A stretch of DNA of 64,000 bases from Shigella phage Sf24. Below are positions 53,941-58,630 of this stretch, in pieces (positions within the stretch are counted from its first letter, which is position 1; every line of letters begins with the position of its first letter). Both the position numbers and the translations under genes were made by a program. The notes beneath the pieces are model-generated. The model was not told the DNA's origin, searched no databases, and saw only the letters and a list, made by a program, of their open reading frames with translations. The stretch is taken from sequence record MF327008. One strand, given 5' to 3'.

Positions 53941-53976
53941 GATTACTATACCATAACCTTGCCAACTTGTAAACCA
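53941..53976 (-). promoter_or_regulatory. T4-type early promoter
   Basis: GTTTAC ... TGGTATAGTAAT with flanking imperfect inverted repeat. Confidence 0.45.
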
Positions 53977-54150
53977 TTAAATGACGTTTTCAATAAAATT
54001 CTGAAGCTTTGTGTGAGCATCAACCATGATTTTCATTTCTTCTTTTGCGAAAGCTGTACCTCTTTCCCGAGCAGAATACTCATAGTCAGAAACTGCATTA
54101 GCATATTCTTCAATTAGCTTCATTAAAAACATCTGCTTTTCAGTTTTCAT
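53977..54150 (-). CDS. small acidic helical protein (~57 aa), paralog family
   Basis: MKTEKQMFLMKLIEEYANAV; GGTGG RBS; coordinates approximate. Confidence 0.4.
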   Translation of the reverse strand: MKTEKQMFLMKLIEEYANAVSDYEYSARERGTAFAKEEMKIMVDAHTKLQNFIENVI

Positions 54151-54334
54151 TATTCCACCTAATCATTTCAAGATATTGAACTAACTTAGCTTTGGATTTA
54201 TCCAAATCTCTTTTAGCTGCTTCTATACCGTCGTATGAATATCCTTCACAATGCTCAACTGCTAATTGATATGAATCTATTTCAATATCACGTGCTAATT
54301 TAATGATTTTTTCAAACTGTTCACGTGTTAGCAT
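54140..54334 (-). CDS. small acidic helical protein, paralog family
   Basis: MLTREQFEKIIKLARDIE. Confidence 0.5.
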   Translation of the reverse strand: MLTREQFEKIIKLARDIEIDSYQLAVEHCEGYSYDGIEAAKRDLDKSKAKLVQYLEMIRWNNEN

Positions 54335-54336
54335 AA

Positions 54337-54540
54337 TTAAACTCTCGTATTATGATCGATAATTTCATCAAGAAACATATCTAACGCTTCTAAAGCATTA
54401 TCAACTTTAGCTTCAAGTTCTTCAATACTTTTATTTGCAATGCCTGACGAAAACCAAGCAAAGTCACTAAGTTCCTCATCTGCTTTACGAATTAAAGCTA
54501 CCAATTCCTTAATTTTATCCGCTTGTTCGATACTAATCAT
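54337..54540 (-). CDS. small acidic helical protein, paralog family
   Basis: [24 protein letters not shown]. Confidence 0.5.
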   Translation of the reverse strand: MISIEQADKIKELVALIRKADEELSDFAWFSSGIANKSIEELEAKVDNALEALDMFLDEIIDHNTRV

Positions 54541-54728
54541 TATTCCACCACATATGAAAGAGAGAATATTGCACACGCCATGTGAGTTGCAACTTCATCA
54601 CACATATTATAACGTTTCTTAAGAAATTCTACAAGTTCTTCACTAGTAACTTCATCCATGTCGACGAAAAAATCACCATTAATGATGACGTAGATATTTC
54701 CTTCTTGATTGAGTGCTTCAATTTTCAT
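54540..54728 (-). CDS. hypothetical small protein
   Basis: start MKIEALNQ with GAGGAG RBS after promoter cassette. Confidence 0.5.
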
Positions 54729-54754: not shown

Positions 54755-54787
54755 GTATAGTACCACAGCTCAAACGGAAAGTAAACC
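54755..54787 (-). promoter_or_regulatory. T4-type early promoter in repeated cassette
   Basis: GTTTAC ... TGGTACTATAC. Confidence 0.5.
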
Positions 54788-54802
54788 GGTAAAATGAAAA
54801 AA

Positions 54803-54818
54803 GTCTCCCGAAGGAGAC
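54803..54818 (-). terminator. intrinsic terminator
   Basis: GTCTCC-CGAA-GGAGAC hairpin followed by U-run on minus strand. Confidence 0.65.
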
Positions 54819-54823
54819 TAATG

Positions 54824-56350: not shown

Positions 56351-56539
56351 TTAGTCCTTAGTTAAATTTTCTAAATATGTTTCTAAATCATTTTCAGCTT
56401 TATCGATAGATTTTACTAATTCGTAATATGTTTCGGCATCTCCATAATCAGAAGATAATTCAAAAGACAAATCCTTTTCTAAACTAATAATTTCACCAAC
56501 TAAAAATAATATTTCGTTCTTTTGTTCACGAGTAATCAT
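56351..56539 (-). CDS. small acidic helical protein, paralog family
   Basis: MITREQKNEILFLVGEIISLEKDL. Confidence 0.5.
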   Translation of the reverse strand: MITREQKNEILFLVGEIISLEKDLSFELSSDYGDAETYYELVKSIDKAENDLETYLENLTKD

Positions 56540-56721
56540 AAAGAATTTATATAATCAATGAGTTCTTGTTCTTTATTATCGAATTCTTTAGAAAGTTCTT
56601 CGTATTCATTTGCATTAAAAGGACCGCATTCATCACAAACTTTTTCCAATTCACTGTTTTTATCCATAACTTCGTGGATAAGAGAAAAGAGTTTGTCTTT
56701 TTGTTCTTTGCTTAAACTCAT
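56536..56721 (-). CDS. small acidic helical protein, paralog family
   Basis: MSLSKEQKDKLFSLIHEVMDKNSEL. Confidence 0.5.
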   Translation of the reverse strand: MSLSKEQKDKLFSLIHEVMDKNSELEKVCDECGPFNANEYEELSKEFDNKEQELIDYINSL

Positions 56722-56887
56722 ATATTAATTTCCAAAAGTTTTAAAATAATTCGCTTTTGCTTAAATATTTCCACAGTTAAATGATCAGTATCTTTTTGAC
56801 CAATTCCAATGGCAAAACCTTTATTAACAGCGAGTTCAATTAAATTATCAAGTTCACGTAACACTTCATATTGTAACTCAGAACTAT

Positions 56888-57094
56888 TCATTTCGGTTTA
56901 CCTTCTTTAACGAAATCTGGATAAGGATAAAATCCCGAATAAAATCCTTCACCTTTATGATTGATGCATCCTTTATTAGAACAATAGCACCAATAATCGA
57001 AATCACAAGCCATTTCATCGTTGCATAAAGCAAAAACAACCGGCCATTTACACTTTTCACAGTGGGCATTTTTAAGAATACTAGTTTGGCTCAT
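56888..57094 (-). CDS. Cys-rich small protein
   Basis: CEKCKW...CYCSNKGC pattern. Confidence 0.45.
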   Translation of the reverse strand: MSQTSILKNAHCEKCKWPVVFALCNDEMACDFDYWCYCSNKGCINHKGEGFYSGFYPYPDFVKEGKPK

Positions 57095-57303
57095 AACCAT
57101 GTAACCTTTAAGCAATATTCTTCTACATGTTGTTTACGACCTTTCTTATCAATAAAGGTATATTCAACGAATGTCCCAATGTAGTCTTTATCTACATCAT
57201 GTGGACTATTAATTGGACATTTAGTACGGCAAATGCGTTCCCATTGACGAATAATTACTGCTTTGTTTTTAGGATCAAACGGATGTGGGTAATGCACTTT
57301 CAT
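57091..57303 (-). CDS. hypothetical small protein
   Basis: 70-aa ORF. Confidence 0.45.
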   Translation of the reverse strand: MKVHYPHPFDPKNKAVIIRQWERICRTKCPINSPHDVDKDYIGTFVEYTFIDKKGRKQHVEEYCLKVTWL

Positions 57304-57754
57304 AATCCACCACTATTAAATCAATATCAGGAGTAAACATGTCGATTAATTTAGAAACCTTATCCCAATCGCCGCCAGCAATACCACAACCTATGCGTGG
57401 AATGTAAATTACCGGTTTAAACAAAAGGGTTTCTGCCTGTAGATTTAATTCTATCATGCAGTTTACTAAAGCACCATAATCAAGATTAGGACCTGGTTCG
57501 TATTGCGTATACAGGTTATAGCATATACCAAATCCCGTAGGACTATGTTTAAAAACAATAGACATATCGCCTAATTTATCGCGAGAACCGTACTCAGTAG
57601 TGGTTTTATCTATTTCTAAAATTTTGGGATAGGCTCTGGCTAATTGACCCGCTACACCTGAACCCATAGTATGAAAACAATTGCACCCGTGCGCAATAAT
57701 ATTACCTTGAAGAAATAGGGCGACAATATCGCCCTTGATATATTTTACAATCAT
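57275..57754 (-). CDS. macro-domain protein (ADP-ribose binding/hydrolase fold)
   Basis: GDIVALFLQGNIIAHGCNC...MGSGVAGQLARAYP and IGCGIAGGDW resemble the macro-domain glycine-rich loops. Confidence 0.6.
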   Translation of the reverse strand: MIVKYIKGDIVALFLQGNIIAHGCNCFHTMGSGVAGQLARAYPKILEIDKTTTEYGSRDKLGDMSIVFKHSPTGFGICYNLYTQYEPGPNLDYGALVNCMIELNLQAETLLFKPVIYIPRIGCGIAGGDWDKVSKLIDMFTPDIDLIVVDYESALPTSV

Positions 57755-58092
57755 CTAGTACTCAATCCTCGATTATAAGAATCTACCAAACGGTCAACCA
57801 TTGAATGACAAGCGGCTTTATCTTTCTCCTCCGCAACTGAACATTCTAAGGTATTCCACTTTTTAGCATATCGTTTTAACAATGTATCATTTTTGTATCT
57901 GCTTGATTTATCTCTTTCTCCGTCTTTATATGCATATATTAATTTCTGCGCAAATTCAGCTTGGCATGCTTTATTTTTCCCGCAATAATCCGCTGCAGTA
58001 CGGTTTACATACTCTCTAATTTCAGTATATGATGTATCTGCTAACGCAGAAAATGAAATTAATCCTATACATAAAACCAAAATTTTAGTCAT
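57751..58092 (-). CDS. secreted Cys-containing protein
   Basis: signal peptide MTKILVLCIGLISFSALA. Confidence 0.5.
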   Translation of the reverse strand: MTKILVLCIGLISFSALADTSYTEIREYVNRTAADYCGKNKACQAEFAQKLIYAYKDGERDKSSRYKNDTLLKRYAKKWNTLECSVAEEKDKAACHSMVDRLVDSYNRGLSTR

Positions 58093-58630
58093 TTACTATT
58101 TCCAAAAGTTTATTATTTTTAAGGTAATTAGCCTTTTCTAGGACTTCAGAAGCATATTTAGAACCTGCTTTAACATTCCATCCCGAATTATAAGAGGATA
58201 TTGCTTTTCTTATATCGCCCTTATGTATATTTAACCAATAAGAAAGTTCAATGTACGCCCAGGAAGCTGAATTGGACCGTTTATTCAACATTCTTTTTAT
58301 TTCAGCATCGGTCATATTATAACCAAGTTCCTTAACTCTTGCTCGCATAGTAGGCAAATAATTTTGGAACATTCCGTAGGCGTGATGCTTTGGTTTAGAT
58401 TTTAAATTAACTCCGCCAGAGCTTTCTTGCCATAAAATAGCAGCCATTATATGACCTAATCCGCTCTTGTGGATATTTTTGTGTGTTTTATATTTTCCAT
58501 CCTTAGAAAATTGTTCCCCGAATTGATACGCGTAACGCATGTTATCGAGTTGGACATTACTGAAAGTATGCTCGGAGCTATGTGCCATCATTGAAATGGC
58601 CAATAGACCAGCGAGTAGTGCTTTTCTCAT
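58085..58630 (-). CDS. periplasmic lytic transglycosylase (SLT domain)
   Basis: signal peptide; motifs ILWQESSGG, AYGMFQ, SYNSG. Confidence 0.65.
   Translation of the reverse strand: MRKALLAGLLAISMMAHSSEHTFSNVQLDNMRYAYQFGEQFSKDGKYKTHKNIHKSGLGHIMAAILWQESSGGVNLKSKPKHHAYGMFQNYLPTMRARVKELGYNMTDAEIKRMLNKRSNSASWAYIELSYWLNIHKGDIRKAISSYNSGWNVKAGSKYASEVLEKANYLKNNKLLEIVND

What the first reader, a model, noticed from the sequence alone, without database searches (positions are those of the whole stretch)
53977..54576. Family of small acidic helical proteins at two loci
At least five ~57-80 aa proteins share an N-terminal pattern M-x-(T/S)-x-E-Q-x-x-K-I/L and acidic helical composition: three in tandem here and two at 56351-56721 on the far side of tk. 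Small acidic helical phage proteins are often inhibitors of host enzymes or nucleic-acid mimics.
Basis: seen in the sequence. Interest (0 to 1): 0.5.

Follow-up and report, generated by a model that had tools for sequence, protein, structure and literature searches.

The report
Five paralogous T4 helical-hairpin mini-proteins
The five small genes are real relatives of one another, the T4-type genes mobD.2a, mobD.3, mobD.4, tk.1 and tk.2, and form a catalogued family of about 60-residue two-helix proteins (Pfam DUF7438) that phages of the T4 group make early in infection, can lose in laboratory hosts, and whose function nobody has determined.

Summary
The window is a Tequatrovirus (T4-like) genome segment. 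The five ORFs are the homologues of T4 MobD.2a, MobD.3, MobD.4, Tk.1 and Tk.2.

**Observation confirmed.**
- All five exceed the Pfam DUF7438 threshold (55-69 bits against 25).
- My leave-one-subfamily-out profiles recover each one as the top non-training ORF of 940 (E 6e-7 to 2e-13). No sixth member lies in the window.
- AlphaFold2 gives a two-helix hairpin for Tk.2 and MobD.2a (pLDDT 91 and 96).

**Corrections.**
- MobD.4 starts at the ATG at 54540 (67 aa), not the GTG at 54576.
- Only three of the five are strongly acidic.
- MobD.2a carries a variant of the motif.

**What is known about the family.**
- It is tiny: 41 clusters among 1.84 billion representatives.
- It is confined mainly to enterobacterial T4-like phages and varies from 0 to 5 copies around tk.
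- At least three of the five paralogues are under purifying selection.
- In T4 the genes are transcribed early, four proteins are detected, and each gene is individually dispensable.

No function is published and no fold or sequence match is informative. My best inference (confidence 0.4) is that they are small binding modules that each sequester a different host or defence protein. The locus also holds proven anti-defence genes. The family is already known, and interest is modest.

The parts
53977..54150 (-). MobD.2a homologue, 57 aa. It is the most divergent family member, with net charge -2 and variant N-terminal motif MKTEKQ.
   Evidence: ORF. Pfam DUF7438 59.8 bits. PHROG 2758. Leave-out profile E 6e-7. 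AF2 hairpin H4-30/H32-55, pLDDT 95.8. pN/pS 0.05. Its start overlaps the mobD.3 stop by 11 nt, and its GGTGG Shine-Dalgarno lies inside mobD.3.
54140..54334 (-). MobD.3 homologue, 64 aa, net charge -3, N-terminus MLTREQFEKI.
   Evidence: ORF. DUF7438 63.3 bits. PHROG 653. Leave-out E 4e-13. pN/pS 0.08. The T4 orthologue has early RNA and early protein.
54337..54540 (-). MobD.4 homologue, 67 aa from the ATG at 54540, net charge -9, N-terminus [10 protein letters not shown]. The 79-aa GTG form reaching 54576 is probably not used.
   Evidence: ORF. DUF7438 55.5 bits starting at residue 2 of the ATG form. slur07 annotates the 204-nt form. GGTGG Shine-Dalgarno 5 nt upstream of the ATG. Leave-out E 2e-13. 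pN/pS 0.32, with indels in the loop among orthologues.
56351..56539 (-). Tk.1 homologue, 62 aa, net charge -10, N-terminus MITREQKNEI. It ends 1 nt before the tk start.
   Evidence: ORF. DUF7438 56.2 bits. PHROG 653. Leave-out E 5e-13. 100% identical to T2 Tk.1. Present in only 193 phage records.
56536..56721 (-). Tk.2 homologue, 61 aa, net charge -9, N-terminus MSLSKEQKDKL. Its stop overlaps the tk.1 start (ATGA).
   Evidence: ORF. DUF7438 68.8 bits. Leave-out E 2e-10. AF2 hairpin H5-30/H37-60, pLDDT 90.7. pN/pS 0.11. 100% identical to RB14 Tk.2.
54757..54786 (-). Early-promoter-like site, GTTTAC - 18 nt - TGgTACTAT. It lies upstream of mobD.5 and heads the unit mobD.5 > mobD.4 > mobD.3 > mobD.2a.
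   Evidence: Read directly from the sequence. A mobD.5 promoter and transcript in T4 are described in PMC1702504. That this site drives the three downstream family genes is my inference.
54802..54819 (-). Terminator-like hairpin (AGTCTCC-TTCG-GGAGACT followed by T-run) just after rI.-1. It separates the rI unit from the mobD.5-mobD.2a unit.
   Evidence: Consensus scan and sequence. Function not tested.

Best explanation
The five genes are diverged paralogues of one phage-specific mini-protein family (Pfam DUF7438; PHROG 653, 2758 and 4859). Each encodes a soluble antiparallel two-helix hairpin of about 60 residues.

Shown:
- They are homologous.
- Three of the five (MobD.2a, MobD.3, Tk.2) are under clear purifying selection.
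- In T4 they are transcribed early, and four of the proteins are detected.
- Each is individually dispensable on laboratory E. coli.
- Copy number and allele type vary among T4-like phages.

Inferred mechanism: the invariant positions only build the scaffold. These are an N-terminal capping box (T/S-x-E-Q) and an a/d heptad seam (I/L2, I/L10, L13, I/V14, I17, L24 in helix 1; Y/I39, V/L46, L53, Y/F56, L/I57, L/I60 in helix 2). The seam is widest at the end where both termini meet, so the hairpins probably pair into four-helix bundles or dock onto a partner helix. The paralogue-specific, mostly acidic exposed residues and the variable loop give each copy its own target. I therefore think they act stoichiometrically as small binders that sequester or block different host proteins of enterobacteria. 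The most plausible targets are components of anti-phage defence or host-takeover targets, not phage replication itself.
For: **Homology and fold:**

**No catalytic or nucleic-acid-binding domain, and no informative structural relative:**
- Pfam and NCBIfam gave only DUF7438.
- Foldseek against PDB gave a best E of 0.8, all generic oligomerising hairpins such as Rop, CsoR/FrmR and ZraP.
- BFVD returned only uncharacterised phage proteins.
- A PDB sequence search gave a best E of 0.05.

**Conservation pattern:** the only columns at least 84% hydrophobic are the heptad seam, and Ala predominates at the two mid-helix positions. T/S (93%), E (91%) and Q (84%) form the N-cap. All other positions vary between paralogues.

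**Real, maintained genes:** pN/pS is 0.05, 0.08 and 0.11 for MobD.2a, MobD.3 and Tk.2, against 0.03 for tk.

**Expression in T4:** early RNA; MobD.3 and MobD.4 are early proteins and Tk.1 and Tk.2 middle proteins (PMC9697503 supplement). An early-type promoter precedes mobD.5.

**Accessory nature:**
- CRISPRi-ART knock-downs of all five are 'Not Fit'.
- Transposon insertions are tolerated in all five in T4 and in the three Bas37 orthologues.
- The nrdC.11-mobD.3 block is deletable.

**Host-linked distribution:**
- Only 41 clusters were found in an exhaustive search of 1.84 billion representatives.
- Hits in GenBank phages are T4-like phages of Escherichia, Shigella, Salmonella, Yersinia and Citrobacter.
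- There are 0-5 copies within 5 kb of tk in 40 tk-bearing loci.
- Tk.2 has two discrete allele lineages: 167 records at >=80% identity, 573 below 60%, none between.
- Recombinant Tk.2-N/Tk.1-C chimeras exist.

**Neighbourhood:** tk.4, a few genes upstream on the same strand, is AdfM (anti-DarTG2). nrdC.1 is anti-Septu. A Bas37 gene of the nrdC block is anti-Druantia III.
Against: - No partner, phenotype or toxicity is known for any member.
- In HIDEN-SEQ screens of T4 against RexAB, RnlAB, CBASS, DarTG1 and DarTG2, only the expected genes were hits, and no DUF7438 gene is named among hits on clinical isolates. This could reflect redundancy between paralogues or untested targets.
- Within Tequatrovirus, most paralogues are highly conserved, not fast-evolving. 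That fits a stable conserved target as well as or better than an arms race.
- Guilt by association is weak in T4 hyperplastic regions, which mix many functions.
- Oligomerisation is inferred from sequence only. I could not run multimer predictions.
Confidence: 0.4

Rival explanations
1. Nucleic-acid mimics: the acidic hairpins, probably as dimers, imitate the phosphate backbone of DNA or RNA. They would block DNA-binding host enzymes such as restriction or recombination nucleases, in the manner of T7 Gp5.9 or Ocr, T4 Arn, or phi29 p56.
For: - Tk.1, Tk.2 and MobD.4 have net charge -10, -9 and -9 over about 62 residues, with pI 4.15-4.34.
- The family median net charge is -8, and 78% of members are <= -5.
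- The proteins are small, early and dispensable.
Against: - MobD.2a and MobD.3 are only -2 and -3, and family members reach +1 and +4. Acidity is therefore not a defining trait.
- No sequence or fold match to any known mimic.
- Acidic residues are not at conserved columns: no column outside the N-cap Glu exceeds about 62% acidic.
Confidence: 0.12
2. Phage-directed accessory subunits: the hairpins bind phage proteins. For example, they could modulate thymidine kinase or the dNTP-synthesising complex, or act as assembly or chaperone adaptors. They would be dispensable because the effect is only kinetic.
For: - A family member abuts the tk start codon in 18 of 40 tk-bearing loci, including divergent genera.
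- Translational coupling tk.2 > tk.1 > tk.
- Strong purifying selection within the genus.
- Tk.1 and Tk.2 protein timing equals that of Tk: early RNA, middle protein.
Against: - 14 of 40 tk loci have no member within 5 kb, and others have one separated from tk by another gene.
- The mobD-side copies are in a separate early transcription unit.
- The family is absent from most T4-like lineages that share the conserved replication and nucleotide machinery: only 41 clusters worldwide.
Confidence: 0.2
3. Rop-like RNA-binding four-helix bundles: hairpin dimers that bind structured RNA and tune stability or translation of early transcripts.
For: - Rop is also about 63 aa and an acidic helical hairpin. 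Foldseek aligns Tk.2 to Rop mutants with TM 0.82-0.88 and rmsd 1.7.
- Conserved K/R at helix-1 positions 5 and 10 (53% and 64% basic).
Against: - The Foldseek E-values of 3.8-4.6 are not significant, at 12-14% identity, and any hairpin gives such scores.
- No Pfam Rop hit at E <= 1.
- The overall strongly negative charge disfavours RNA binding.
Confidence: 0.05
4. Largely functionless duplicated ORFs that drift in a hyperplastic region and persist through linkage and homing-endonuclease-driven shuffling.
For: - No knock-down or insertion phenotype.
- Frequent loss, chimeras and a frameshifted mobD.2a in the T4 reference record.
- pN/pS is 0.32 for MobD.4 and 0.61 for Tk.1, the latter from only 22 differences.
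Against: - pN/pS of 0.05-0.11 for three members.
- The heptad seam is retained across paralogues that share only 11-29% identity.
- The proteins are detected in infected cells.
- Orthologues are kept intact in several hundred genomes.
Confidence: 0.08

Closest known systems
Pfam DUF7438 (PF24219), equal to PHROG 653, 2758 and 4859; T4 proteins MobD.2a, MobD.3, MobD.4, Tk.1, Tk.2
   Same: The window proteins are members. Full-length matches score 55-69 bits, with 95-100% identity to orthologues in T2, RB14, T4 and others. Gene order is the same as in T4.
   Different: Nothing substantive. mobD.2a is intact here, whereas the T4 RefSeq record carries a frameshift. The MobD.4 loop is 7 residues longer than in T4.
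Rop/ROM of ColE1 plasmids (63-aa hairpin, homodimeric four-helix bundle, binds RNA kissing complexes)
   Same: Size, antiparallel two-helix hairpin topology, small Ala-rich mid-helix packing and acidic pI. TM 0.82-0.88.
   Different: No sequence relationship: no Pfam hit, and Foldseek E 3.8-4.6 at 12-14% identity. Dimerisation and RNA binding are untested. The genetic context differs: phage early operon versus plasmid copy control.
Small acidic phage inhibitors and DNA mimics (T7 Gp5.9 and Ocr, T4 Arn, phi29 p56). Comparison from my own knowledge of these proteins.
   Same: Small, early, dispensable, acidic phage proteins without enzymatic domains.
   Different: No detectable sequence or fold similarity. 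Acidity is not conserved over the family. No target is known.
Neighbouring T4 accessory anti-defence genes: Tk.4/AdfM (anti-DarTG2), NrdC.1 (anti-Septu)
   Same: Same hyperplastic genome region and strand, early or middle expression, dispensable on E. coli K-12.
   Different: Unrelated folds: AdfM is a macrodomain enzyme. A defence-specific phenotype was found for those genes but not reported for any DUF7438 gene in the same screens.

Membership tests
Pfam DUF7438 (PF24219) | Whole-protein HMM score above the curated gathering cut-off (25 bits) | tested here: met
   59.8, 63.3, 55.5, 56.2 and 68.8 bits for MobD.2a, MobD.3, MobD.4, Tk.1 and Tk.2.
Pfam DUF7438 (PF24219) | Match covers the whole 57-position model in a protein of about 57-67 aa | tested here: met
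   Model positions 1-56/57 or 1-57/57 are matched in all five.
Pfam DUF7438 (PF24219) | Homology independent of the Pfam model (own profiles with the tested subfamily left out) | tested here: met
   E 6e-7 to 2e-13, against >= 0.07 for unrelated ORFs. MobD.2a was only marginal with narrower profiles.
Rop/ROM family | Sequence match to the Rop family model | tested here: not met
   No Rop hit among Pfam matches at E <= 1. No Rop chain in the PDB sequence search at E <= 10.
Rop/ROM family | Significant fold match to Rop | tested here: inconclusive
   TM 0.82-0.88 but E 3.8-4.6, the same as for many unrelated hairpins.
Rop/ROM family | Homodimeric four-helix bundle that binds RNA loop-loop complexes | not testable with these tools
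   No multimer prediction or binding assay is available.
DNA-mimic proteins (functional class) | Strong, conserved net negative charge | tested here: inconclusive
   -9, -10 and -9 for three members but -2 and -3 for two. Family range -11 to +4, median -8.
DNA-mimic proteins (functional class) | Carboxylate pattern matching DNA phosphate spacing, and binding to a DNA-binding protein | not testable with these tools
Molybdopterin-guanine dinucleotide biosynthesis protein 'MobD' (name carried by RefSeq records for MobD.3 and MobD.4 homologues) | Match to a molybdenum-cofactor biosynthesis domain | tested here: not met
   Only DUF7438 in Pfam and nothing above cut-off in NCBIfam. The name appears to derive from the gene symbol mobD.x, which refers to the mobD homing endonuclease locus.
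Helicase loader (label of PHROG 4859, applied to a sixth paralogue in phage ACG-C40) | Similarity to a helicase-loader domain such as T4 gp59 (217 aa) | tested here: not met
   The 61-aa ACG-C40 protein hits DUF7438 at 57.8 bits and no loader family. T4 gp59 is a separate 654-nt gene.

The most novel reading that the evidence does not exclude
DUF7438 is a diversifying family of hairpin decoys. Each paralogue, alone or as hetero-oligomers with its neighbour, would neutralise a different enterobacterial immune or stress-response protein. Redundancy between copies would have hidden them from single-gene screens. That would make this a new multi-copy anti-defence family in the best-studied phage.
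Probability: 0.2. Interest if true: 0.6.

Novelty: already known. Interest (0 to 1): 0.27.

Why it matters
T4 is the reference lytic phage, yet roughly half of its genes still have no function. A five-copy family that is expressed early, kept under purifying selection and confined mainly to enterobacterial T4-like phages is a compact, tractable target. One multi-deletion mutant and a handful of pull-downs could assign a function to five T4 genes and several hundred orthologues at once.

If the proteins prove to be inhibitors of host immunity or host enzymes, their minimal 60-residue scaffold would also interest people designing binders. As things stand, the finding re-discovers a catalogued domain of unknown function.

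Tried and rejected

- Literature: full-text searches for mobD.2a, mobD.3, mobD.4, tk.1, tk.2, DUF7438, UniProt P39237, P39238, P13306, P13307 and RefSeq ids found no functional study. The genes appear only in supplementary tables.
- A 2026 preprint on a Mosigvirus early peptide (Emp) appeared in a search but could not be opened. It does not contain 'DUF7438'.
- Fold and sequence searches gave nothing informative: PDB Foldseek, BFVD, PDB sequences, NCBIfam.
- The search for related loci with the family alignment failed because no stretch was conserved enough. I anchored on Tk instead.
- The listing of cluster members timed out, so the hosts of the most distant members were sampled only through three contig look-ups.

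**Leads tested and rejected or left unconfirmed**
- I tested whether the new anti-Druantia III gene bas37_0203 is a family member. It is a 528-nt gene in the nrdC block, so it is not.
- The profile-profile test of the MobD.2a subfamily against the rest was weak: P 0.0045 over 20 columns, because that subfamily alignment is nearly invariant. The broader leave-out profile settled the question.
- T4 PseT.1 scored E 0.002 with my profile but has no Pfam DUF7438 hit. I leave it as an unconfirmed candidate.
- Neighbouring small ORFs (mobD.5, rI.1, 56718-56891) were tested as possible members and rejected.

**Correction to my own analysis**
- The first pN/pS run was contaminated by gapped or frameshifted alignments and was redone with ungapped intact ORFs only.
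Full report
**Identity of the region.** The 3.1-kb stretch around the finding matches 548 phage records. Of these, 494 are at least 95% identical, and all are T4-like phages of Escherichia, Shigella, Yersinia, Salmonella and related hosts. The best match is Escherichia phage slur07 at 98.6%. Alignment with the annotated T4 genome and slur07 shows the following gene order on the minus strand... tk.4 (macro domain) - [extra ORFs] - tk.2 - tk.1 - tk - rI.1 - rI - rI.-1 - mobD.5 - mobD.4 - mobD.3 - mobD.2a - mobD.2 - mobD.1 ....
- MobD.2a, 53977-54150
- MobD.3, 54140-54334
- MobD.4, 54337-54540
- Tk.1, 56351-56539
- Tk.2, 56536-56721

**Checking the observation.** All five proteins match Pfam DUF7438 (PF24219) over its full 57 positions at 55.5-68.8 bits, against a cut-off of 25. 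The neighbouring small proteins MobD.5, rI.1 and the 57-aa ORF at 56718-56891 do not match. PHROGs puts four of the five in phrog_653 and MobD.2a in phrog_2758.

The Pfam seed may already contain these T4 proteins, so I made an independent test.
- An exhaustive HMMER search of 1.84 billion representatives with an 18-sequence alignment returned 41 clusters. Nearly all were 57-65 aa and matched end to end.
- From 45 diverse members I built profiles, leaving out one subfamily at a time, and searched all 940 six-frame ORFs of the window.
- The omitted protein was always the top non-training hit: MobD.2a 6e-7, MobD.3 4e-13, MobD.4 2e-13, Tk.1 5e-13, Tk.2 2e-10. The next ORF scored E >= 0.07.
- Narrower profiles had given only E 0.26 for MobD.2a, and a profile-profile comparison was weak. 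MobD.2a is therefore the outlier of the family, but it is linked through intermediates that share its 'ERGT' loop.
- The N-terminal motif [ST]-x-E-Q-x-x-[KE]-[IL] occurs five times in the whole six-frame translation. Four of those are the N-termini of MobD.3, MobD.4, Tk.1 and Tk.2. Shuffles give a mean of 0.27.
- No sixth member lies in the window.

- The 79-aa form of MobD.4 is a GTG extension that overlaps mobD.5. The family alignment, the slur07 annotation and a GGTGG Shine-Dalgarno place the start at the ATG at 54540, giving 67 aa.
- Net charges are -2, -3, -9, -10 and -9, so only three members are strongly acidic.

**Structure.** AlphaFold2 predicts an antiparallel two-helix hairpin for both proteins modelled:
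- Tk.2: helices 5-30 and 37-60, pLDDT 90.7.
- MobD.2a, the most divergent member: helices 4-30 and 32-55, pLDDT 95.8.

Column statistics over 45 members show the following.
- The only positions that are at least 84% hydrophobic form an a/d heptad seam: Tk.2 residues L3, L11, L14, I15, V18 and L25 in helix 1, and F47, L54, Y57, I58 and L61 in helix 2.
- Ala predominates at the two mid-helix positions.
It is essentially a helix capping box followed by the first heptad.
- The hydrophobic stripe is widest where the two termini meet. I take this as a hint of dimerisation or partner docking. This is inference only.

Searches for structural or sequence relatives found nothing informative.
- Foldseek against PDB found nothing below E = 0.8, only generic oligomerising hairpins such as ZraP, FrmR/CsoR and Rop.
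- BFVD returned only uncharacterised phage proteins.
- A profile search of PDB sequences gave a best E of 0.05.
- NCBIfam gave nothing.

**Distribution and evolution.** The following table gives tblastn hits (E <= 1e-3) among 50,697 GenBank phages.

| Protein | Records with a hit |
|---|---|
| MobD.2a | 642 |
| MobD.3 | 587 |
| MobD.4 | 503 |
| Tk.1 | 193 |
| Tk.2 | 740 |

- All hits are in enterobacterial T4-like phages.
- Tk.2 shows two discrete lineages: 167 records at >=80% identity, 573 below 60%, and none between. Phage ACG-C40 carries the second type alone, without Tk.1.
- In 40 IMG/VR loci anchored on Tk, members number 0-5 within 5 kb and are always on the tk strand. They lie directly upstream of tk (18 loci abut its start), further upstream, or 0.5-2.7 kb downstream. 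Fourteen loci have none.
- ACG-C40 has a sixth subfamily between mobD.1 and mobD.2. It is annotated 'helicase loader' and scores 57.8 bits on DUF7438.
- Natural Tk.2-N/Tk.1-C chimeras exist (P0027 and P0076).
- The T4 RefSeq mobD.2a is split by a frameshift, although a re-sequenced T4 stock lists an intact 174-nt gene.
- A few distant members lie outside T4-like contexts, for example next to an AAA_25 primase-helicase-like gene and a Cro/CI-type HTH gene.

The next table gives pN/pS within Tequatrovirus, from ungapped intact ORFs in 5-9 genomes.

| Gene | pN/pS | Note |
|---|---|---|
| MobD.2a | 0.05 | |
| MobD.3 | 0.08 | |
| Tk.2 | 0.11 | |
| MobD.4 | 0.32 | |
| Tk.1 | 0.61 | only 22 differences |
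| tk | 0.03 | comparison gene |
| rI | 0.12 | comparison gene |

At least three members are clearly maintained as proteins.

**Expression and dispensability (published T4 and Bas37 data).**
- A terminator-like hairpin (54819-54802) follows rI.-1. An early-type promoter (GTTTAC-18-TGgTACTAT, 54786-54757) precedes mobD.5. A mobD.5 promoter and transcript are documented in T4 (PMC1702504).
- The genes are tightly packed or overlapping, which suggests translational coupling.
- In the time-resolved T4 omics data set, mobD.3 and mobD.4 are 'early RNA, early protein' and tk.1 and tk.2 are 'early RNA, middle protein'. MobD.2a has early RNA but no protein class (PMC9697503 supplements).
- CRISPRi-ART knock-down of each of the five gave 'Not Fit', meaning no fitness effect (PMC11879866 supplement).
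- HIDEN-SEQ transposon mapping scored all five as non-essential in T4, with 8/8, 19/19, 20/20, 20/22 and 15/16 TA sites hit. The three Bas37 orthologues are also non-essential (bioRxiv 10.1101/2025.11.20.689424).
- Genome reduction removed nrdC.11-mobD.3 (PMC9825161).
- In the same HIDEN-SEQ study, tk.4 was the single hit against DarTG2 and was named AdfM. nrdC.1 inhibits Septu, and a 175-aa Bas37 gene of the nrdC block inhibits Druantia III. No DUF7438 gene is reported as a hit against RexAB, RnlAB, CBASS, DarTG1, DarTG2 or on clinical isolates.

**Interpretation.** The evidence fits early, soluble, non-enzymatic accessory proteins. Their conserved residues only build a hairpin scaffold, and their surfaces differ between paralogues. 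Several features lead me to favour stoichiometric binding of host or defence proteins, one target per paralogue (confidence about 0.4):
- restriction mainly to phages of enterobacteria;
- variable copy number;
- cassette-like alleles;
- residence in a region now known to hold several anti-defence genes.

A role as partners of phage enzymes, particularly Tk, is the main rival (0.2). It is supported by adjacency to tk but weakened by the many tk loci that have no member. Nucleic-acid mimicry (0.12) fits three of the five proteins but not the near-neutral or basic members. A Rop-like RNA-binding role (0.05) rests only on a non-significant fold resemblance. Drift without function (0.08) conflicts with the purifying selection and with protein detection.

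**Novelty.** The family is already catalogued (Pfam DUF7438, PHROG 653), and the genes have long been annotated in T4. The window's proteins are up to 100% identical to database entries. The function is still unknown, and no held paper addresses it. The finding is correct but not new, and its value lies in being a cheap, well-defined experimental target.

Noticed in passing
window 56718-57094 (-): ORFs 56718-56891 (57 aa) and about 56888-57094 (68 aa from ATG): Two small genes lie between tk.2 and the T4 tk.3 orthologue (57091-57303) and are absent from T4. They are present in slur07 and ACG-C40. The second is Cys-rich (CEKCKW...CNDEMAC...CYC...C) and may bind zinc. The first hits only PHROG 3452, which has no known function.
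   Followed up: partly
L001 3997-4178 (T4 NC_000866 about 57996-58177) versus window 53977-54150: The T4 RefSeq mobD.2a (38 aa) is a frameshifted version of the intact 57-aa gene seen here and in most relatives. A re-sequenced T4 stock (HIDEN-SEQ supplement) lists an intact 174-nt mobD.2a, so the reference may hold a strain-specific mutation or an old sequencing error.
   Followed up: partly
L003 1320-1505 (phage ACG-C40, NC_019399 55273-55458): A sixth DUF7438 subfamily (PHROG 4859) sits between mobD.1 and mobD.2 in some Tequatroviruses. RefSeq and PHROGs label it 'helicase loader', which is an evident misannotation. RefSeq likewise names MobD.3 and MobD.4 homologues 'molybdopterin-guanine dinucleotide biosynthesis protein MobD', apparently from the gene symbol.
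   Followed up: yes
L007 15909-16136 (T4 pseT.1, outside the window): T4 PseT.1 (75 aa) starts MISWHQFEHLKGLI and ends DLHDYIQSLVEKK. It scores E 0.002 with my family profile but has no Pfam DUF7438 hit. It is possibly a distant relative with a longer loop, at a third locus.
   Followed up: partly
proteins P0027 and P0076 (e.g. phage UFV-AREG1): Natural in-register chimeras join the Tk.2 N-terminal helix to the Tk.1 C-terminal helix. This implies unequal recombination between the tandem paralogues that collapses two genes into one.
   Followed up: no
window 53945-53973 (-): A strong sigma-70-like site (TTTACA-17-TATAGT with upstream TG, 10 of 12 matches) lies immediately downstream of mobD.2a. 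It is probably another early promoter, serving mobD.2 and mobD.1.
   Followed up: no
window 57275-57754 (-): The tk.4 homologue (159 aa, macro domain) is the gene recently named adfM, shown in T4 to counter the DarTG2 defence system. It lies four genes upstream of tk.2 on the same strand.
   Followed up: partly
window 54148-54162 and 54538-54552 (-): mobD.2a and mobD.4 share an identical translation-initiation context (GGTGGAATAATG). This may be a remnant of the duplication that created them, or convergence on the same Shine-Dalgarno spacing.
   Followed up: no
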